A DNA stretch of 64,000 nt from Escherichia phage KEP3, in the sequence record PP047753. One strand, written 5' to 3'. How positions within the stretch are numbered: the first letter of the stretch is position 1; the number at the start of each line of letters is the position of its first letter. The notes under the pieces are model-generated. The model worked only from the letters and a program-made list of their open reading frames with translations. It ran no database searches and was not told where the DNA came from. Shown in pieces: positions 43,746 to 49,525 of this stretch. The position numbers and the translations under genes are program-made.

Positions 43746-43821
43746 TAAAATAACTTGGAGAATCCGAAGGGACTCGAACCCTTATAAACCTGTTTTGCAG
43801 ACAGGTACATAGCCATTTCTG
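43746..43821 (-). tRNA. tRNA-Cys: tRNA-Cys (GCA)
   Basis: T-arm GGGTTCGAGTCCC, 7-bp acceptor, anticodon loop CTGCAAA, CCA encoded. Confidence 0.75.
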
Positions 43822-43825
43822 TCAC

Positions 43826-43918
43826 GGATTCAAATTGGAGGAAGATACCAGACTTGAACTGGTACACCGATTTCTCAGCTACTGGCAGTTTAGCAAACTG
43901 CTCCCTTACCTTTTAGGG
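43826..43918 (-). tRNA. tRNA-Ser: tRNA-Ser (GCT), class II
   Basis: T-loop TTCAAGT, anticodon loop TTGCTAA, long variable arm. Confidence 0.65.
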
Positions 43919-43929
43919 TTAATCTTCCG

Positions 43930-44664
43930 TTATTTCTGTAATGCGTTCTTCATTTCTGGTGTTGCAATAGTATCAATTACACCAGTTTTACAAGCATCAT
44001 CAAACCAGTCTGGTAAGATACCTGCTAAGAACCCATTGATATTCGTTTTAAGGTACTCTGCAATAAGAGCAGCTTCTTCTTCAATCATCTGCACAACTTC
44101 ATCTGCATAAGCTGTAATCTTCGAGATACCTTCATTAATCTTGCTAACAGCTTGGTTAGCTAAATCAGAAACAGTATCAAGACCTTTGTCAATAGCATCT
44201 TGTAAGTCACTTAATACATCATTAACACCATCTAATGTACTGTTAATTGTGTCAATAGCTTTTTGACCGTACTCTGTAGCAACACCCATAATACCACTAA
44301 ATGGTGTACAACCGACTTGCTCTCCTGCTGCACCCATAACATTGGAATATCCTTTTGCTACCTGCATACGTGATGAAAACTCATCAATTGATTTTTGACC
44401 GTAATCTGTCAGTGTCTTAGTAGTTGATGTAGTGCTTGTCAGACTCGTTGTAAAGCTATTAAGCAGAACTGTTGTAAGTCCAGCAGCAATAAGCTTATCC
44501 TTTATTGTAGGGTCGGTTACAGAGCTAATAGAGTTTACAAGTGATGTAGAGGCAGCTACGGTTCCACCGAGAACTGCTGCACCAGTAATAAGGGGATTAG
44601 AAAACCCTCTACCGGTTTTTAAGAGATTAAAAATCTCCTTACCTTGTTCTGTCATCTCTTTCAT
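43930..44664 (-). CDS. hypothetical Ser/Thr-rich protein
   Basis: ORF track; start trimmed to ATG 44664 (AAGGTG RBS) to avoid overlap with tRNA. Confidence 0.45.
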   Translation of the reverse strand: MKEMTEQGKEIFNLLKTGRGFSNPLITGAAVLGGTVAASTSLVNSISSVTDPTIKDKLIAAGLTTVLLNSFTTSLTSTTSTTKTLTDYGQKSIDEFSSRMQVAKGYSNVMGAAGEQVGCTPFSGIMGVATEYGQKAIDTINSTLDGVNDVLSDLQDAIDKGLDTVSDLANQAVSKINEGISKITAYADEVVQMIEEEAALIAEYLKTNINGFLAGILPDWFDDACKTGVIDTIATPEMKNALQK

Positions 44665-44680
44665 TAAGCACCTTTGAAAT

Positions 44681-44758
44681 TGGTAGTCCAGTGGGATTTG
44701 AACCCTCTTCTCATGTTTTTCAGACACGCGCTTTAACCATATAAGCTACTTGGACTAT
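44681..44758 (-). tRNA. tRNA-Phe: tRNA-Phe (GAA)
   Basis: T-loop TTCAAAT, acceptor TAGTCCA/TGGACTA, anticodon loop CTGAAAA. Confidence 0.6.
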
Positions 44759-44762
44759 AAAT

Positions 44763-44838
44763 TGGGGTGACCTACGGGATTTGAACCCGTATAGACCATG
44801 TTCACAGCATGGGTCATTACCATTTATGATAAGGCCAC
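44763..44838 (-). tRNA. tRNA-His: tRNA-His (GTG)
   Basis: T-loop TTCAAAT, anticodon loop CTGTGAA. Confidence 0.7.
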
Positions 44839-44869
44839 ATTTAAGGACTCTCGTAAGAATCCTTAGAAG

Positions 44870-44946
44870 TGGCAGCGGCATAAGGATTTGAACCTTAATA
44901 AGACAGCTTCAGAGACTGCTGCATTGCCAGTTATGCTATACCTCTA
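44870..44946 (-). tRNA. tRNA-Gln: tRNA-Gln (CTG)
   Basis: D-stem GCAT/ATGC, anticodon loop CTCTGAA; one acceptor mismatch. Confidence 0.55.
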
Positions 44947-44950
44947 AATT

Positions 44951-45029
44951 TGGTACTCCATATCGGATTCGAACCGATACATAACACAGATTTTAAGTCT
45001 GGCCTCTCTGCCAATTGGAGTAATGGAGC
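44951..45029 (-). tRNA. tRNA with anticodon TAA (Leu codon UUA), class-I-like length
   Basis: T-arm ATCGG-TTCGAAT-CCGAT, anticodon loop CTTAAAA, discriminator A; short variable region. Confidence 0.55.
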
Positions 45030-45031
45030 AT

Positions 45032-45107
45032 TGGCGGGGGATGTTGGAATTGAACCAACTTCTTCGATTTCAAAGACCGAGGTTTTAACCTTGTAAACTA
45101 ATCCCCT
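45032..45107 (-). tRNA. tRNA-Gln: tRNA-Gln (TTG)
   Basis: T-loop TTCAATT, anticodon loop CTTTGAA. Confidence 0.65.
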
Positions 45108-45115
45108 TTAAATCT

Positions 45116-45673
45116 TTATTTTCTTAGTGGATGAATAAAGAATGCCAACATAACTCTCTCCCTTGAGAATGCTCTTTCTTCTGGGACAACACTTTTAAGT
45201 TTCCATCCAACATAAATTCTCCAGTAGAATTGTTTACCAAAGATTTTAATTGATGGTACAAAAGCGAATAATCCCCAAGCATTACTGTTCCACATCAGGA
45301 GATAACCTGTCTGATTATCTTTAGGGTTAGAACTTACGTTGATATTACCTTTCCACTTAGTAACATCTTTTACATCTCTTCCTAACACATGGTAAGAGAA
45401 GTTATAAGCTTTGTTTCTCCAGAGCCAACCGACTCTCTGCATATAGATACCAAGCTTACCAATCTTTCGAATCTTAGCCCATCGTTTGACATGACCTTCA
45501 TCGCCATCAATTGGGTTGTCATATGTCTCCATCCATCTGAATCCAAAAGGTAAGTGTCCTTTCTTCTCACTGTAAAATGGAACTACAAAAGGTGCTAAGA
45601 TAACTGCTAAGATTGCTGCAAATGGCTCTAACAAAGCTAAGAAAATCCATGAAGCATACTTCAAATATCTCAT
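45116..45673 (-). CDS. hypothetical membrane protein embedded in tRNA array
   Basis: ORF track; AGAGG RBS; hydrophobic N-terminus. Confidence 0.45.
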   Translation of the reverse strand: MRYLKYASWIFLALLEPFAAILAVILAPFVVPFYSEKKGHLPFGFRWMETYDNPIDGDEGHVKRWAKIRKIGKLGIYMQRVGWLWRNKAYNFSYHVLGRDVKDVTKWKGNINVSSNPKDNQTGYLLMWNSNAWGLFAFVPSIKIFGKQFYWRIYVGWKLKSVVPEERAFSRERVMLAFFIHPLRK

Positions 45674-45694
45674 CTAAATAGCCTCTTTAAATTG

Positions 45695-45768
45695 GCGCAG
45701 GATAAGGGATTCGAACCCCTATTAACAGCTTCGTAGACTGTTGCTCTATCCATTTGAACTAATCCTGC
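45695..45768 (-). tRNA. tRNA-Arg: tRNA-Arg (ACG)
   Basis: T-loop TTCGAAT, anticodon loop CTACGAA. Confidence 0.7.
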
Positions 45769-48477: not shown

Positions 48478-48532
48478 ATTACCAGACCGTTGTTTATCAT
48501 CTTAAGTGCTACCATTACACCAACTCGACATC

Positions 48533-48600
48533 TGCCGAGTGAAGGAATCGAACCTTCGCCTTTTCTTTACCGGAGAAATAGATTGTTTAAGTTTTGCTGT
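48533..48600 (-). pseudogene. tRNA-like 3' fragment (T-arm, acceptor 3' strand, anticodon arm with GGT) lacking pairing 5' half
   Basis: GAAGG-TTCGATT-CCTTC T-arm and TTTCT-CCGGTAA-AGAAA arm present; no complementary 5' acceptor; no CCA. Confidence 0.4.
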
Positions 48601-48620
48601 AAACGGTCTTCTGTAAATTT
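48591..48620 (-). repeat. tRNA-spacer repeat copy 1
   Basis: Identical 30-mer to 49163-49192. Confidence 0.7.
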
Positions 48621-48682
48621 GTTGAGCCAGACCAAGTTTTAAATTTTTCAAAATTAAATTGGCTTGAAAATATCATACGTAC

Positions 48683-48707
48683 TTGCTGAATTTGGTCTTC
48701 TGCTCCT
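48683..48707 (-). repeat. tRNA-spacer repeat copy 4 (degenerate)
   Basis: CTTGCTGAATTTGGTCTTCTGCTCC. Confidence 0.5.
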
Positions 48708-48788
48708 TTAAAGAATACTCGTAAGAACTCTTTAAGGGAGGGGCTAAATAGCCCTCTCAAAACATCATCTTGAAATACTTATTATAAT

Positions 48789-48866
48789 TTGGCGGTTACG
48801 AAGGGATTTGAACCCTCATCATCTCCCGTGACAGGGGAGTATTTTAACCAGATTAAACTACATAAC
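48789..48866 (-). tRNA. tRNA-Asp: tRNA-Asp (GTC)
   Basis: T-loop TTCAAAT, anticodon stem CTCCC/GGGAG, loop CTGTCAC. Confidence 0.7.
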
Positions 48867-48872
48867 CTTTAT

Positions 48873-48960
48873 TTGGTGTGCCGTGTAGGAGTCGAACCTA
48901 CCGAGTCTCAATGACAAGGGATTTACAGTCCCCACCGCTACCATCTACGGGATAACGACA
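48873..48960 (-). tRNA. tRNA-Tyr: tRNA-Tyr (GTA), class II
   Basis: T-arm GTAGG-TTCGACT-CCTAC, acceptor GTGTCGT/ACGGCAC, anticodon loop CTGTAAA, long variable arm. Confidence 0.65.
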
Positions 48961-49032
48961 CATTTTATATTCTATTCAGGCTAAGGACTTGCACCTTACA
49001 AATCGGTGAGCAATCGCTTCTCTCCCAAATTT

Positions 49033-49109
49033 TGGCGGTTAGTCAGGGATTCGAACCCTGTGCCATTCGCTTAACAGGCGACCGCACATACCTTATGTGC
49101 TTCCTAACC
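49033..49109 (-). tRNA. tRNA-Asn: tRNA-Asn (GTT)
   Basis: D-stem GCAC/GTGC, anticodon loop CTGTTAA, T-arm CAGGG-TTCGAAT-CCCTG. Confidence 0.7.
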
Positions 49110-49162
49110 ATGTTTAGTATTACCAGACCGTATCTTTCAATTTTTCCGCTAAGAATTTAATA

Positions 49163-49192
49163 AGTTTTGCTGTAAACGGTCTTCTGTAAATT
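49163..49192 (-). repeat. tRNA-spacer repeat copy 2
   Basis: GTTTTGCTGTAAACGGTCTTCTGTAAATTT abutting tRNA 3' end. Confidence 0.7.
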
Positions 49193-49269
49193 TGGAGGCG
49201 GGTGCAGGAGTCGAACCTGCCGATACCATGCTAATGAGACATGTGAGACGCCCTTTCTCTATACCCGCA
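49193..49269 (-). tRNA. second CAT-anticodon tRNA (Met, initiator or Ile2 type) with 1:72 mismatch
   Basis: T-arm GCAGG-TTCGACT-CCTGC, anticodon stem CATGT/GCATG, loop CTCATTA; T1 vs C72 unpaired. Confidence 0.55.
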
Positions 49270-49332
49270 ATTCTTAATGACCAGACCAAATCTCTTCTTT
49301 GTCCGATTAACTGTCAGATGAATAAGATTAAA

Positions 49333-49360
49333 CTTGCTGTAATTGGTCTTCTGTCAAAAC
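49333..49360 (-). repeat. tRNA-spacer repeat copy 3
   Basis: CTTGCTGTAATTGGTCTTCTGTCAAAAC abutting tRNA-Glu 3' end. Confidence 0.6.
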
Positions 49361-49438
49361 TGGCGTTCCAGAAGGGATTTGAACCCTCAAATATCCACTT
49401 TGAAAGAGTGGTGACTTTACCGTTTTGTCTACTGGAAC
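49361..49438 (-). tRNA. tRNA-Glu: tRNA-Glu (TTC)
   Basis: Perfect acceptor GTTCCAG/CTGGAAC, anticodon stem CCACT/AGTGG, loop CTTTCAA. Confidence 0.7.
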
Positions 49439-49445
49439 ATTAATT

Positions 49446-49525
49446 TGGTCTCCGTTGAAGGATTTGAACCCTCGACCCCTTGCTCCCAAAGCAAGTGCTG
49501 CTAAACCAAACTGAGCTAAACGGAG
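49446..49525 (-). tRNA. tRNA-Pro: tRNA-Pro (TGG)
   Basis: Acceptor CTCCGTT/AACGGAG, anticodon stem CTTGC/GCAAG, loop TTTGGGA. Confidence 0.7.

What the first reader, a model, noticed from the sequence alone, without database searches (positions are those of the whole stretch)
43746..49525. Large minus-strand tRNA array interrupted by protein genes and promoters
About 27 tRNA genes, all on the minus strand, cover at least 16 amino-acid specificities. Most are packed 2-10 nt apart, but the array is broken by two CDSs (43930-44664, 45116-45673), an HNH endonuclease gene, an internal sigma70-like promoter (47489-47517), an upstream promoter (49644-49672) and tandem terminators (43579-43718). All folds were done by eye, so coordinates are +/-3 nt and isotype calls need software confirmation.
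Basis: seen in the sequence. Interest (0 to 1): 0.5.

Follow-up and report, generated by a model that had tools for sequence, protein, structure and literature searches.

The report
Phage tRNA array hiding other RNAs
This is the well-known tRNA gene cluster of a FelixO1-like phage, but its "spacers" also hold four small RNAs that appear to partner the Ro60-like protein encoded just upstream, and a tmRNA-like tag-coding RNA that lacks a tRNA-like part; neither is annotated in any record or described in any paper I could search.

Summary
ARAGORN finds 26 tRNA genes, all on the minus strand, at 43756-49525. They cover 19 amino acids, and 25 encode CCA. A 27th, Trp-like element is non-canonical. 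The two CDSs, the HNH gene, the promoters and the terminators are all present.

The window is a Felixounavirus at 95-97% identity to many isolates whose arrays are already annotated, so the array itself is known.

Two things in the gaps are not annotated.

1. Four modules share one architecture: an outer stem, an AGA bulge, an AGACCnnn stem, single-stranded UACAGCAA, a variable core, and nnnGGUCUGG. One module carries a permuted tRNA-like core, like YrlA. They lie about 0.3-1.2 kb downstream of a DUF2828 gene whose predicted fold is Ro60. In 75 unrelated viral contigs, such stem+CAGCAA modules are about 11-fold enriched on the gene's strand within 700 nt.

2. A tmRNA-like element at 47395-47237 has a 10-codon tag (ANDNVFLAVA in relatives; frameshifted here), a stop-codon hairpin and two covarying pseudoknots, but no tRNA-like domain. 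It recurs, unannotated, in several phage families and in 338 of 5426 E. coli genomes.

Functions are inferred, not shown.

The parts
49691..51106 (-). Ro60-like protein gene (Pfam DUF2828 + DUF7788; PHROG 850 'RNA-binding protein'), directly upstream of the array on the same strand
   Evidence: Pfam; PHROG. The AlphaFold model has pLDDT 88.8. The top 11 Foldseek PDB hits are all Ro60/TROVE (2i91_A E 8e-9, TM 0.66). The MIDAS-type D279-x-S281-x-S283 is invariant in 42 homologs.
49644..49672 (-). sigma70-like promoter (TTGACA-17-TAATAT) upstream of the array
49552..49581 (-). second sigma70-like promoter (TTGACA-18-TAAAGT, TG extended)
49446..49525 (-). tRNA-Pro(TGG)
49361..49438 (-). tRNA-Glu(TTC)
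49279..49355 (-). Y-RNA-like module A: GACA/AGA/AGACCAA-UUACAGCAA...UUGGUCU-G-GUC. It fills the Glu-Met spacer.
   Evidence: (41.8 bits with model R1)
49193..49269 (-). tRNA-Met/CAT, called by ARAGORN only; weak against the Rfam tRNA model
49120..49189 (-). Y-RNA-like module B. It fills the Met-Asn spacer.
   Evidence: (50.7 bits)
49033..49109 (-). tRNA-Asn(GTT)
48874..48961 (-). tRNA-Tyr(GTA)
48790..48867 (-). tRNA-Asp(GTC)
48624..48705 (-). Y-RNA-like module C (motif AUUCAGCAA)
48479..48616 (-). Y-RNA-like module D, YrlA-like. It has the same basal stem and motif as A-C, then a V hairpin, a T arm (GGUUCGAUUCC), a 7-bp acceptor-like hairpin, U-G, and a D arm (GUGUAAUGGUAGCAC).
   Evidence: Fold. 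Compensatory changes in the acceptor-like hairpin. Model R1 links it to the Klebsiella phage FBKp34 module (E 8e-10) and the mycobacteriophage Jubie module (3.5e-4). Both of those hit Rfam YrlA RF02553 (E 1e-5).
48339..48480 (-). 142-nt very stable hairpin of unknown role; conserved only in close relatives
   Evidence: z -5.8
48259..48334 (-). tRNA-Lys(TTT)
48104..48180 (-). tRNA-Met/CAT
47602..48087 (-). HNH endonuclease gene, an insertion absent from many relatives. The likely start is the ATG at 48087, because the longer ORF overlaps tRNA-Met.
   Evidence: phrog_2255 2e-33. Relatives L018 and L019 have Lys, Met and Ile only 2-6 nt apart.
47533..47608 (-). tRNA-Ile(GAT)
47489..47517 (-). best sigma70-like promoter of the region (TTGACA-17-TATAGT), about 90 nt upstream of the tmRNA-like core
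47237..47395 (-). tmRNA-like element without a tRNA-like domain. It contains AUAGUUUUCGU..., a resume-type GCA at 47350, the tag frame at 47350-47324, a stop-codon hairpin, pseudoknot A (47304-47271) and pseudoknot B (47270-47237). It ends 39 nt before tRNA-Arg.
   Evidence: Rfam tmRNA 14.7 bits, E 0.0012. The tag is ANDNVFLAVA** in 27 of 27 relatives, and a T5->T4 change in the window gives ANDNVFWQ*. There are 13 distinct 10-aa tags. Helices show compensatory changes. The core is present in other phage families and in 338 E. coli genomes.
47121..47197 (-). tRNA-Arg(TCT)
46896..46978 (-). Trp-like non-canonical tRNA. It has the anticodon loop CUCCAAA with a C-A mismatch (or a 9-nt loop), an extra ~8 nt before the D stem, and it ends G-CCA.
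   Evidence: Rfam tRNA-Sec model 23 bits; fold; conserved 83-98% in the Felix/Moogle group; not called by ARAGORN.
46793..46882 (-). tRNA-Ser(TGA), the only tRNA without an encoded CCA
46541..46630 (-). 90-nt conserved long hairpin of unknown role
   Evidence: z -5.7
46462..46539 (-). tRNA-Leu(TAG)
46379..46454 (-). tRNA-Lys(CTT)
46297..46372 (-). tRNA-Ala(TGC)
46216..46290 (-). tRNA-Gly(TCC)
46133..46208 (-). tRNA-Thr(TGT)
46042..46128 (-). 87-nt conserved hairpin that fills the Thr-Val spacer and contains CUGAAGACCGUAAC; role unknown
   Evidence: (z -3.3)
45962..46036 (-). tRNA-Val(TAC)
45883..45960 (-). tRNA-Leu(CAA)
45759..45866 (-). 35-aa ORF with a good ribosome-binding site (phrog_13848). 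It is a ~110-nt insertion absent from all 12 relatives compared.
45693..45768 (-). tRNA-Arg(ACG)
45116..45673 (-). CDS, DUF7338 / phrog_2143, with a hydrophobic N-terminus
45032..45107 (-). tRNA-Gln(TTG)
44951..45029 (-). tRNA-Leu(TAA)
44870..44945 (-). tRNA-Gln(CTG)
44763..44838 (-). tRNA-His(GTG)
44681..44756 (-). tRNA-Phe(GAA)
43930..44664 (-). CDS, DUF7217 / phrog_2114
43836..43928 (-). tRNA-Ser(GCT)
43756..43831 (-). tRNA-Cys(GCA)
43659..43718 (-). terminator-like long hairpin GCCCUG...CAGGGC followed by U6
   Evidence: read in the sequence
43570..43593 (-). terminator-like hairpin GACGG...GCCGUC followed by U6

Best explanation
The region is the tRNA and small-RNA island of a FelixO1-like (Felixounavirus) phage.

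Shown:
- There are 26 same-strand tRNA genes for 19 amino acids, nearly all with an encoded CCA, plus a Trp-like variant.
- The cluster sits downstream of strong sigma70-like promoters and ends at two terminator-like hairpins.
- Two conserved ORFs, a mobile HNH endonuclease gene and a 35-codon ORF are inserted in it.

Inferred from what is established for T4, T5 and host tRNA operons:
- The island is transcribed as a few long precursors.
- Host RNase P, RNase E and 3' exonucleases cut these into individual RNAs.
- The tRNAs keep phage translation going when host tRNAs are depleted, ill-matched to phage codons, or attacked by tRNA-targeting defences.

The spacers are not junk.

Four of them encode small RNAs with one shared design. 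A basal bulged stem formed by the 5' and 3' ends has the form NNNN-AGA-AGACCnnn ... nnnGGUCU-G-NNNN. It is followed by a single-stranded UACAGCAA motif and a variable core. In module D the core is a circularly permuted tRNA mimic (V, T, acceptor-like and D arms), which is the YrlA architecture.

I infer that these RNAs are the Y-RNA-like ligands of the Ro60-like (DUF2828) protein encoded immediately upstream. I also infer that they are released by the same tRNA-processing cuts, because modules A and B fill their inter-tRNA spacers exactly. The resulting ribonucleoprotein would act on structured RNA or tRNA quality control, possibly by recruiting a host exonuclease such as PNPase, as bacterial Rsr/Y RNA and Thermus phage phiLo Ro60 do.

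A fifth element, behind its own promoter and ending at tRNA-Arg(UCU), is a tmRNA-like 'mRNA-like domain'. It has a resume-type GCA codon, a 10-codon degradation-tag-like frame, a hairpin that presents the stop codons, and two pseudoknots. It has no tRNA-like domain in cis. I infer that it derives from tmRNA and acts in, or interferes with, host trans-translation. In this particular phage the tag frame is broken by a 1-nt deletion.
For: Array:
- ARAGORN finds 26 tRNAs and Rfam 25.
- 25 of 26 encode CCA.
- The region is 95-97% identical to more than 90 Felixounavirus genomes with annotated arrays.
- Promoters and a terminator are found by the scan. The HNH gene matches PHROG families.

Ro60-like protein:
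- The AlphaFold model has pLDDT 88.8.
- The top 11 PDB matches are all Ro60/TROVE over the full length.
- Mycobacteriophage homologs at 33% identity are annotated 'Ro-like RNA binding protein'.
- A DxSxS MIDAS motif is invariant.

Modules:
- The 19-nt motif AGAAGACCNNNTNCAGCAA occurs 4 times exactly in the array, against 0.26 matches expected by chance with up to 2 mismatches allowed.
- All four modules fold to the same bulged stem.
- They sit at the same four places in 27 relatives.
- Compensatory changes occur in module D's acceptor-like hairpin: ACUCGGC/GUCGAGU, ACACGU/GCGUGU and ACCCUUC/GAAGGGU.
- A covariance model built only from Felix-group module D finds the module next to the DUF2828 gene of Klebsiella phage FBKp34 (55 bits, E 8e-10) and of mycobacteriophage Jubie (E 3.5e-4). 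Those two hit Rfam YrlA at E about 1e-5.
- In 75 unrelated viral contigs whose DUF2828 proteins are 39-47% identical, stem+CAGCAA modules occur at 0.55/kb on the gene's strand within 700 nt. The rate is 0.05/kb on the opposite strand and 0.07/kb further away. The stem sequences are all different.
- Kolesnikvirus relatives, which lack the gene, lack the modules.

tmRNA-like element:
- Rfam tmRNA-family hits are weak but recurrent.
- There are 13 distinct tags, all exactly 10 codons, of the form AN[DE]xxx[LM][AM][AV]A plus stop.
- Five helices show compensatory changes, for example CCAA/UUGG, CCGA/UCGG and CCAG/CUGG.
- The core is present in Ounavirinae, Ackermannviridae, Schitoviridae and Carvajevirus.
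- It is also present in 338 of 5426 E. coli genomes, always unannotated.
Against: - No expression, processing, binding or aminoacylation data exist here. Every functional step is inference.
- Module D does not hit Rfam YrlA at E<=10.
- The modules lack the GNCGAA(N)G motif that Chen et al. 2014 (PMC4201824) link to Rsr binding.
- Pfam calls the protein DUF2828, not TROVE.
- Only 43 of 75 diverse loci showed a module under my strict scan.
- The folding energies of modules A-C are not unusual against shuffles (z -0.6 to -1.6), so their support is comparative only.
- The tmRNA-like element has no T arm, no acceptor stem and no G3-U70 in cis. ARAGORN finds no tmRNA in 31 family members, and all Rfam scores are far below gathering.
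- Without a tRNA-like domain the known mechanism of trans-translation cannot operate.
- The tag frame is disrupted in this window and in Salmonella phage MBP4696116, so an intact tag is not essential for viability.
- The overall number of promoter-like hits is at the chance level.
Confidence: 0.72

Rival explanations
1. The array is only a codon-supply device, and the longer spacers are processing signals, terminators or attenuators, or decayed tRNA genes. On this view the repeated GAAGACC...GGUCUGG stems are RNase III/E sites or insulators between tRNAs, with no link to the upstream protein.
For: Modules A and B sit exactly between tRNAs. Their folding energies are ordinary. Module D contains tRNA-derived arms and could be a rearranged pseudogene. 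A Trp-like degenerate tRNA does exist in the array.
Against: The same stem+CAGCAA design flanks DUF2828 genes in phages that have no tRNA at that spot. These include Aeromonas phage LAh_6 and mycobacteriophage Jubie, with completely different stem sequences. The modules are absent from Kolesnikvirus arrays, which lack the gene. The single-stranded motif is invariant while the stems covary, which is the pattern expected of a protein-binding site rather than a nuclease stem.
Confidence: 0.15
2. The tmRNA-like element is the coding piece of a split (two-piece) tmRNA. Its tRNA-like, chargeable piece would be supplied in trans, either by module D (T arm plus acceptor hairpin, followed by GCCA in Mooglevirus relatives) or by another tRNA-like RNA. 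The phage would then run its own trans-translation with its own tag.
For: ARAGORN joined exactly these two pieces into a 'permuted tmRNA' in L021. Rfam's best partial hits are to the permuted tmRNA families. In prophage-borne family members, tRNA-like hairpins with a T arm that end in UCCA lie next to the core. The U at -5 and A at -4 before the resume codon, which I recall as important for frame selection in E. coli tmRNA, are conserved.
Against: The two pieces are 1.1 kb apart, with three tRNAs and an HNH gene between them. I found no complementarity that would hold them together. No G3-U70 alanine identity pair occurs in any candidate acceptor stem. Many family members have no T loop within -450 to +600 nt. 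Phages that carry the core, such as Kuttervirus, Ithacavirus and Kolesnikvirus, lack module D or the DUF2828 gene.
Confidence: 0.12
3. The tmRNA-like element is a decoy or regulator. As an mRNA-like domain mimic it would titrate SmpB, ribosomal protein S1, RNase R or stalled ribosomes, and so damp host trans-translation or tagging during infection. Translation of the tag would not be required.
For: The element lacks a tRNA-like domain. Phages with a frameshifted tag are viable. The pseudoknots and flanking sequence are at least as conserved as the tag. Hudson et al. 2014 (PMC4131195) note that a tRNA-like-domain-only molecule inhibits tmRNA, so partial tmRNAs can act by titration.
Against: Thirteen different tags all keep exactly 10 codons, the AN[DE] start, a hydrophobic [LM][AM][AV]A end and the stop position. 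That pattern suggests selection on the peptide rather than only on the RNA.
Confidence: 0.25
4. The apparent tag is a coincidence or part of a conventional tiny ORF. An out-of-frame AUG gives MQTTMFFWQ* in relatives, and the region would simply be a structured 5' leader of tRNA-Arg.
For: An AUG overlaps the resume site (AAAUGCAAACG). The element always lies upstream of a tRNA or tRNA-like structure.
Against: The AUG frame gives peptides of 5-9 residues with no conserved length (my reading of the sequences), and no ribosome-binding site is visible. The GCA frame is conserved across families. Independent Rfam tmRNA-family hits occur in all 4 of the first unrelated phage loci scanned, and again in 4 further family members.
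Confidence: 0.06

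Closest known systems
tRNA gene clusters of FelixO1-like phages (Ounavirinae), and of T4 and T5
   Same: The window has the same gene order and 95-97% identity to annotated Felixounavirus arrays. The tRNAs are tightly packed on one strand, with small ORFs and homing endonucleases interspersed.
   Different: Nothing essential differs. This isolate carries an HNH insertion between tRNA-Met and tRNA-Ile and a 35-codon ORF insertion that many relatives lack.
Bacterial and phage Ro60 (Rsr) with Y RNAs, especially YrlA (Rfam RF02553; Chen et al. 2014, PMC4201824; Thermus phage phiLo Ro60-Yrl, PMC12135203)
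   Same: A Ro60-fold protein gene has small RNAs on the same strand within 4 kb. The RNA ends pair in a bulged stem. One RNA has a tRNA mimic in the order V-T-acceptor-D. Modules from related phages hit RF02553 at E about 1e-5.
   Different: The protein is Pfam DUF2828, not TROVE. The conserved RNA motif is YRCAGCAA next to the 5' stem strand, not GNCGAA(N)G or CGAA. The window's module does not reach any RF02553 score. The RNAs are embedded in a tRNA array, and three of the four lack the tRNA mimic. According to PMC12135203, the phages named in Chen 2014 are mycobacteriophages, CcrColossus and Bacillus phage G, not Felixounavirus.
tmRNA (ssrA), one-piece and permuted two-piece forms; phage tmRNAs of cluster C mycobacteriophages and Bacillus phage G; the tRNA-like-domain-only molecule of phage DS6A (Hudson et al. 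2014, PMC4131195)
   Same: The element has a GCA resume codon after an A-rich tract, a 10-residue tag that resembles enterobacterial ANDENYALAA, stop codons in a hairpin loop, and H-type pseudoknots downstream.
   Different: There is no tRNA-like domain in cis. Rfam scores are 14.7-28.9 bits against a gathering score of 47. The element is the mirror image of DS6A: the mRNA-like domain only, instead of the tRNA-like domain only.
Dictyostelid Class I RNAs (Rfam RF01414; Kjellin et al. 2021, PMC7919456)
   Same: Both are short RNAs whose 5' and 3' ends form a stem. A conserved single-stranded motif lies directly after the 5' strand, and the rest is variable. Class I RNAs have conserved AAG-type 5' and CUG-type 3' ends; the phage modules read (A)GAAG...CUUCUG. 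The RF01414 model repeatedly picks up the phage modules.
   Different: All scores are 17.8-30.7 bits, below the gathering score of 41.5. Class I RNAs are reported as unique to Dictyostelia and bind an RRM protein (PMC7919456). I could not test whether Dictyostelium has a DUF2828 protein.

Membership tests
Phage tRNA gene cluster (Felixounavirus type) | Genes that score as tRNAs with dedicated software | tested here: met
   ARAGORN. The Rfam tRNA and tRNA-Sec models recover 25.
Phage tRNA gene cluster (Felixounavirus type) | Synteny and sequence identity with annotated arrays of the genus | tested here: met
   95-97% identity over 86-97% of the 6.3-kb region to the listed Felixounavirus records (93 records cover at least 80% of it), with tRNAs annotated at the same places.
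Phage tRNA gene cluster (Felixounavirus type) | Mature, aminoacylated tRNAs in infected cells | not testable with these tools
   Needs tRNA-seq or acid-gel Northern blots.
Ro60 / TROVE protein family | Sequence match to the Pfam TROVE domain | tested here: not met
   Pfam gives DUF2828 + DUF7788 only. phmmer against PDB sequences finds nothing relevant.
Ro60 / TROVE protein family | HEAT-repeat ring plus a C-terminal vWA domain with MIDAS | tested here: met
   The AlphaFold model has pLDDT 88.8. The Foldseek top 11 are all Ro60, aligned over the full length. DxSxS is invariant.
Ro60 / TROVE protein family | Binds Y RNA or misfolded RNA | not testable with these tools
   Needs EMSA or RIP.
YrlA-type Y RNA (RF02553) | Encoded within 4 kb of the Ro60 gene and on the same strand | tested here: met
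   The modules lie 336-1212 nt downstream of the gene's stop, on the same strand.
YrlA-type Y RNA (RF02553) | tRNA-like domain in the order V, T, acceptor-like, D, enclosed by a stem formed by the RNA ends | tested here: met
   Module D: fold, pair table with compensatory changes, and covariance-model alignment to the FBKp34 module.
YrlA-type Y RNA (RF02553) | GNCGAA(N)G motif near the 5' end | tested here: not met
   The 5' region reads CAGAAGACCGUUUACAGCAA. The invariant motif across phages is ACAGCAA.
YrlA-type Y RNA (RF02553) | Reaches the Rfam gathering score (69 bits) | tested here: not met
   No RF02553 hit in the window at E<=10. Related phage modules score 39 bits.
tmRNA (RF00023, RF01849, RF01850, RF04321) | Tag reading frame from a resume codon to stop codons, with a hydrophobic C-terminus | tested here: met
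   Relatives read ANDNVFLAVA**. There are 13 variants, all 10 codons. In the window itself the frame is cut short by a 1-nt deletion.
tmRNA (RF00023, RF01849, RF01850, RF04321) | Pseudoknots flanking the reading frame | tested here: met
   Two downstream H-type pseudoknots show compensatory changes. An upstream PK1 was not resolved.
tmRNA (RF00023, RF01849, RF01850, RF04321) | tRNA-like domain: acceptor stem with G3-U70, T arm, CCA end | tested here: not met
   ARAGORN finds no tmRNA in 31 members. Many members have no T loop within -450 to +600 nt. No G3-U70 occurs in the candidate stems.
tmRNA (RF00023, RF01849, RF01850, RF04321) | Reaches the Rfam gathering score | tested here: not met
   14.7 bits in the window and at most 28.9 bits in relatives, against a gathering score of 47.
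Dictyostelid Class I RNA (RF01414) | Terminal stem plus a conserved motif adjacent to the 5' strand | tested here: inconclusive
   The architecture is shared, and the model aligns the modules end to end. I could not read the exact 11-nt motif in the paper text that is held.
Dictyostelid Class I RNA (RF01414) | Reaches the Rfam gathering score (41.5 bits) | tested here: not met
   17.8-30.7 bits.
HNH homing endonuclease | HNH motif or profile match | tested here: met
   phrog_2255 at 2e-33, plus seven further HNH PHROGs. Pfam has no hit at E<0.01.

The most novel reading that the evidence does not exclude
The stem+ACAGCAA RNAs and DUF2828 proteins form an ancient Ro60/Y-RNA-like ribonucleoprotein that differs from canonical TROVE/Y RNA and extends beyond phages. 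DUF2828 proteins also occur in eukaryotes: plant papers mention them. Dictyostelid Class I RNAs share the terminal stem, the AAG/CUG ends and a motif adjacent to the 5' strand, and they have been thought unique to social amoebas. On this reading they would be the eukaryotic members of the same RNA class. In parallel, the tmRNA-like RNA without a tRNA-like domain would be a widespread phage and prophage device that rewrites or blocks host trans-translation.
Probability: 0.15. Interest if true: 0.85.

Novelty: new variant of a known kind. Interest (0 to 1): 0.6.

Why it matters
The tRNA array itself is routine and already annotated in hundreds of genomes.

What matters is that the "spacers" annotators skip contain two conserved RNA systems.

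First, they give a large family of phage proteins of unknown function a concrete, testable RNA partner with a defined motif. That family is DUF2828, with 709 phage records in GenBank-derived data and at least 2600 homologs in metagenomes. The result extends Ro60/Y-RNA biology to common enterobacterial phages that are used in therapy and biocontrol. It also ties that system physically to phage tRNA supply, which suggests a role in tRNA or structured-RNA quality control during infection.

Second, they reveal a tmRNA-derived RNA that has kept the tag template and pseudoknots but lost the tRNA half. It is spread across at least four phage lineages, prophages and phage-like plasmids of E. coli, and it is unannotated everywhere. 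How such an RNA could work is an open mechanistic question that can now be tested directly.

Tried and rejected
- ARAGORN's 'permuted tmRNA' in relative L021. It joins module D's T arm/GCCA to a tag 620 nt away, across three tRNAs. I treat the join as a software artefact, although it led me to the tag.
- A tRNA-like domain for the tmRNA-like RNA. I looked in the window transcript, in 31 family members (T-loop regex and ARAGORN) and by eye in the prophage versions. I found only non-canonical tRNA-like hairpins, without G3-U70, at variable positions.
- Rfam YrlA on the window. There was no hit, so I do not file module D as a member of RF02553.
- Foldseek against AFDB50, to learn whether Dictyostelium has a DUF2828 protein. 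The library was unavailable.
- Chen 2014 supplementary tables, which list the phages with YrlA. They are not held.
- Avesson 2011, on Class I RNA-binding proteins. It is not held.
- The sigma70 scan as statistical evidence. The total number of hits equals chance, so only the positions and quality of the top three sites carry weight.
- Two ad hoc helix-extraction scripts failed or ran only partly. I use only the rows that were printed.
- The repeated modules as MITE-like mobile repeats. I rejected this because they occupy the same four sites in all relatives and their stems covary between phages.
- Literature searches on DUF2828, on Felixounavirus with tRNA, on tmRNA with phage, and on Class I RNA with Ro60/TROVE. 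None found a description of these elements. That absence covers only the library held here.

Full report
**1. Observation**

ARAGORN finds 26 tRNA genes in the 64-kb window. The Rfam tRNA and tRNA-Sec models recover 25 of them. The tRNA-Met(CAT) at 49193-49269 is supported by ARAGORN only.

The set covers 19 amino acids, all except Trp. 25 of the 26 genes encode their CCA end.

A further element at 46978-46896 has a tRNA-Trp-type loop (CUCCAAA), a T arm, a 7-bp acceptor stem and a G-CCA end. It also has about 8 extra nucleotides before the D stem and a C-A mismatch closing the anticodon stem. It folds as a cloverleaf and is conserved across relatives.

- The two CDSs are real conserved phage families, DUF7217 and DUF7338.
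- The HNH endonuclease is confirmed by PHROG profiles.
The overall number of promoter-like matches is at chance.
- One terminator-like hairpin is found by the scan, and the other can be read in the sequence.

**2. Identity**

The 6.3-kb region is 95-97% identical to many Escherichia, Salmonella and Shigella phages of the genus Felixounavirus, and 93 records cover at least 80% of it. In MET-P1-301 the same tRNAs are annotated in the same order. The array as such is therefore already known.

Differences between isolates are insertions. The HNH gene between tRNA-Met and tRNA-Ile is missing in relatives where these tRNAs are 2-6 nt apart. The 110-nt segment with a 35-codon ORF (45866-45759, phrog_13848) is absent from all 12 relatives compared.

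**3. The upstream gene**

The gene directly upstream, on the same strand (49691-51106), is Pfam DUF2828 + DUF7788. An AlphaFold model built on 42 homologs has pLDDT 88.8. Its 11 best matches among solved structures are all Ro60/TROVE proteins aligned over the full length. They include Xenopus Ro60 (E 8e-9, TM 0.66), Deinococcus Rsr and the Ro60 of Thermus phage phiLo.

A DxSxS MIDAS motif is invariant. Homologs occur in 709 phage records. Those of mycobacteriophages (33% identity) are annotated 'Ro-like RNA binding protein'.

**4. Y-RNA-like modules**

Reading the spacers on the minus strand shows a repeat. The pattern AGAAGACCNNNTNCAGCAA occurs four times exactly in the array, against 0.26 matches expected by chance with up to 2 mismatches allowed. 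Each copy is followed 50-120 nt later by GGTCTGG.

All four fold the same way:
- a 4-bp outer stem;
- a 3-nt AGA bulge opposite a single G;
- a 7-8-bp stem AGACCnnn/nnnGGUCU;
- the single-stranded UACAGCAA immediately after the 5' strand;
- a variable core.

Modules A (49355-49279) and B (49189-49120) fill the Glu-Met and Met-Asn spacers exactly. tRNA 3' trimming and RNase P cleavage of the next tRNA would therefore release them; this is inference.

Module D (48616-48479) carries, inside the stem, a V hairpin, a canonical T arm, a 7-bp acceptor-like hairpin, the dinucleotide UG, and a D arm. That is a circularly permuted tRNA, the architecture Chen et al. 2014 (PMC4201824) described for YrlA.

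The four modules occupy the same places in all 27 Felixounavirus and Mooglevirus loci fetched. The acceptor-like hairpin shows compensatory replacements: ACUCGGC/GUCGAGU, ACACGU/GCGUGU and ACCCUUC/GAAGGGU. The last is followed by GCCA.

**5. Link between the modules and the protein**

In other phages that carry a DUF2828 gene, the same design lies beside the gene on the same strand:
- Klebsiella phage FBKp34: four modules between the gene and its tRNA array, one of them YrlA-like.
- Mycobacteriophage Jubie: three modules, of the form GUGGACnnn-nACAGCAA...nnnGUCCAG, the middle one YrlA-like.
- Aeromonas phage LAh_6: seven modules found by the scan, lying upstream of the gene and over its annotated start.
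- Three metagenomic contigs (L029, L030, L033) with only 30-40% protein identity.

Rfam's YrlA model hits the FBKp34 and Jubie modules at E about 1e-5. These scores of 39 bits are below the gathering score of 69.

A covariance model built only from Felix-group module D sequences finds the FBKp34 module at 55 bits (E 8e-10), the Jubie module (E 3.5e-4), and modules A and B of the window.

As a test at scale, I fetched 75 further viral contigs whose DUF2828 proteins are 39-47% identical to the window's, and scanned them for a perfect stem of at least 7 bp that ends 1-3 nt before CAGCAA. The module densities were:

| Region | Strand | Modules per kb |
|---|---|---|
| Within 700 nt of the gene | same | 0.554 |
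| Within 700 nt of the gene | opposite | 0.049 |
| Further away | same | 0.070 |
| Inside the gene | same | 0.039 |

43 of the 75 loci have at least one module. The stem sequences all differ while the motif stays the same.

Conversely, Kolesnikvirus phages (Ounavirinae without the gene) keep the tRNA array but have no such modules.

I conclude that these RNAs are the cognate ligands of the Ro60-like protein. This rests on co-occurrence, architecture and covariation, not on binding data.

They are not members of RF02553. The window's module gives no hit, and the motif differs from the GNCGAA(N)G or CGAA motif of bacterial and phiLo Y RNAs.

By analogy with Rsr/Y RNA/PNPase, and with phiLo Ro60, which assembles with host PNPase (PMC12135203), the likely role is handling of structured RNA or damaged tRNA during infection.

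**6. A resemblance worth recording**

Rfam's model for Dictyostelium Class I RNAs repeatedly aligns the small modules end to end, at 17.8-30.7 bits against a gathering score of 41.5.

Class I RNAs are described as a short stem that joins the 5' and 3' ends, a conserved 11-nt motif next to the 5' strand, a variable remainder, and conserved AAG and CUGU termini. They are reported to be unique to dictyostelids (PMC7919456).

The phage modules read (A)GAAG-stem-UUACAGCAA...stem-CUUCUG. This is a lead, not a membership claim. I could not test whether dictyostelids encode a DUF2828 protein.

**7. tmRNA-like element**

ARAGORN reported a 'permuted tmRNA' with tag ANDNVFLAVA** in one relative. Rfam also gave a weak tmRNA hit at 47386-47198.

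All 27 relatives read GCAAACGA(C/T)AATG(T/C)TTTTCTGGCAGTAGCTT(G/A)ATAG. This translates to ANDNVFLAVA**, or once to ANDNAFLAVA**. The window, and Salmonella phage MBP4696116, have T4 instead of T5, which gives ANDNVFWQ*.

The core extends from about 45 nt upstream of the GCA codon to about 115 nt downstream. It lies about 90 nt downstream of the best promoter of the region and ends 39 nt before tRNA-Arg(UCU).

The part of this core from just upstream of the tag onward (about 95-125 nt) is present at 71-83% identity in unrelated phages. These include Kuttervirus and another member of Ackermannviridae, Carvajevirus, the N4-like Ithacavirus and Kolesnikvirus. It is never annotated. In the four of these loci I fetched it lies within about 1.5 kb of a tRNA gene or partial tRNA-like hit.

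About 28 IMG/VR contigs carry it as well. So do 338 of 5426 complete E. coli genomes, at 97 chromosomal places and 246 places on plasmids, which are about 100-140 kb in the rows listed; none is annotated.

Across the family there are 13 different tags, all exactly 10 codons. They start AN[D/E] and end [L/M][A/M][A/V]A before the stop. The stop codons sit in a hairpin whose outer stem covaries (CUGG/CCAG, CUGAU/AUCAG).

Two H-type pseudoknots follow, each with several compensatory variants:
- A1: GUGAGG/CCUCAU, GCAAGG/CCUUGU, GUAGGG/CCCUAU.
- A2: CCAA/UUGG, CCGA/UCGG, CCAG/CUGG.
- B1: CGUACU/GGUAUG, CGCACU/GGUGUG, CGUAGA/UCUAUG.
- B2: GCCCAC/GUGGGC, GACGGGAG/CUCCCGUC, GUCCCG/CGGGGC.

These are the hallmarks of the mRNA-like half of tmRNA. 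The tRNA-like half is missing:
- ARAGORN finds no tmRNA in 31 members.
- Many members have no T loop within 450-600 nt.
- No candidate acceptor stem has G3-U70.
- All Rfam scores are below gathering.

Prophage-borne members flank the core with long stems (GGUAAGAGCA...UGCUCUUUCC) whose apical inserts are sometimes tRNA-like. One member lies next to an int-alpA RNA. The Felixounavirus copy lacks these stems.

Hudson et al. 2014 (PMC4131195) list phage tmRNAs only for cluster C mycobacteriophages, Bacillus phage G and DS6A, the last carrying a tRNA-like domain only.

How an RNA with only the mRNA-like domain works is unresolved. I rank the options as follows:
- A tmRNA-derived modulator or decoy of trans-translation, about 0.25.
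- A coding piece with a trans-acting acceptor piece, about 0.12.
- A chance frame or a conventional small ORF, about 0.06.
- The remainder is unknown.

**8. Mechanism of the island as a whole**

Shown: the genes, their order, their conservation, the promoter- and terminator-like sites, and the covariation.

Inferred from established knowledge of T4, T5 and host tRNA operons (my own knowledge):
- polycistronic transcription;
- RNase P/E processing;
- use of the tRNAs to sustain phage translation and to resist tRNA depletion or cleavage;
- release of the interspersed small RNAs by the same cuts.

**9. Verdict**

The added value is that the array is also a small-RNA island. The Ro60-like/Y-like pairing is a new variant of a known kind of system, with strong comparative support. 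The tmRNA-like RNA without a tRNA-like domain is a widespread unannotated element whose mechanism is open. I found no description of either in the literature I could search.

Noticed in passing
window 48339-48480 (-): A 142-nt near-perfect long hairpin lies between module D and tRNA-Lys(TTT). Its folding z-score is -5.8. It is present only in close relatives, and Mooglevirus L021 has a different sequence with an analogous closing stem (CUUUGCAGU/ACUGCAAAG).
   Followed up: partly
window 46541-46630 (-) and 46042-46128 (-): Two further conserved long hairpins (z -5.7 and -3.3) fill spacers in the array. The second contains CUGAAGACCGUAAC, which resembles the 5' strand of the Y-like modules but lacks CAGCAA and GGUCUGG.
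   Followed up: partly
window 47057-47076 (-); L163 about 5325-5345: The sequence AAGGAGGUGGUCUGUAUCUC, which contains a perfect Shine-Dalgarno-like AAGGAGGU, is conserved between Felixounavirus and Kolesnikvirus in an otherwise diverged spacer. In the window it precedes only a 7-codon ORF.
   Followed up: no
window 47330-47341 (-); L164: The tmRNA-like tag has a T4 run where 27 relatives have T5, which truncates the tag to ANDNVFWQ*. The same allele is in Salmonella phage MBP4696116, so it is either a real lineage variant or a shared homopolymer error.
   Followed up: yes
L158 6003-6116 (Klebsiella phage FBKp34): A 114-nt gene annotated 'tRNA-Asp' carries a ~40-nt insertion in the anticodon-stem region that contains GAAGUUUUACAGCA. 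It looks like a Y-like module motif inside a tRNA. Model R1 scores the overlapping region at 29 bits.
   Followed up: partly
L108 264-330 (-), L106, L129, L054 (IMG/VR prophage contigs): Prophage-borne copies of the tmRNA-like core are flanked by long stems GGUAAGAGCA...UGCUCUUUCC with variable, sometimes tRNA-like, inserts. A 3' tRNA-like domain follows (UGUGGUG...GCCGGAGAUCAGCACCGGC-CACCACA). In L108 an int-alpA RNA (Rfam 43.7 bits, above gathering) lies just downstream, as it does at the host ssrA-intA junction.
   Followed up: partly
L212 4924-4978, L228 4928-4982: Near-threshold hits to the cyanobacterial sRNA NsiR1 (37.7-38.6 bits against a gathering score of 39) lie just downstream of DUF2828 genes in two environmental viral contigs.
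   Followed up: no
window 49193-49269 (-): ARAGORN calls this tRNA-Met(CAT) in the window and in all relatives, but it fails the Rfam tRNA model. Its D region is unusual, and its identity (elongator Met, lysidine-Ile or other) is open.
   Followed up: no
window 41710-43326 (-) and 43333-43533 (-): The large terminase gene and a 66-aa ORF follow the array directly on the same strand. The tRNA/small-RNA island therefore sits immediately upstream of the packaging module, as it does in Kolesnikvirus.
   Followed up: no
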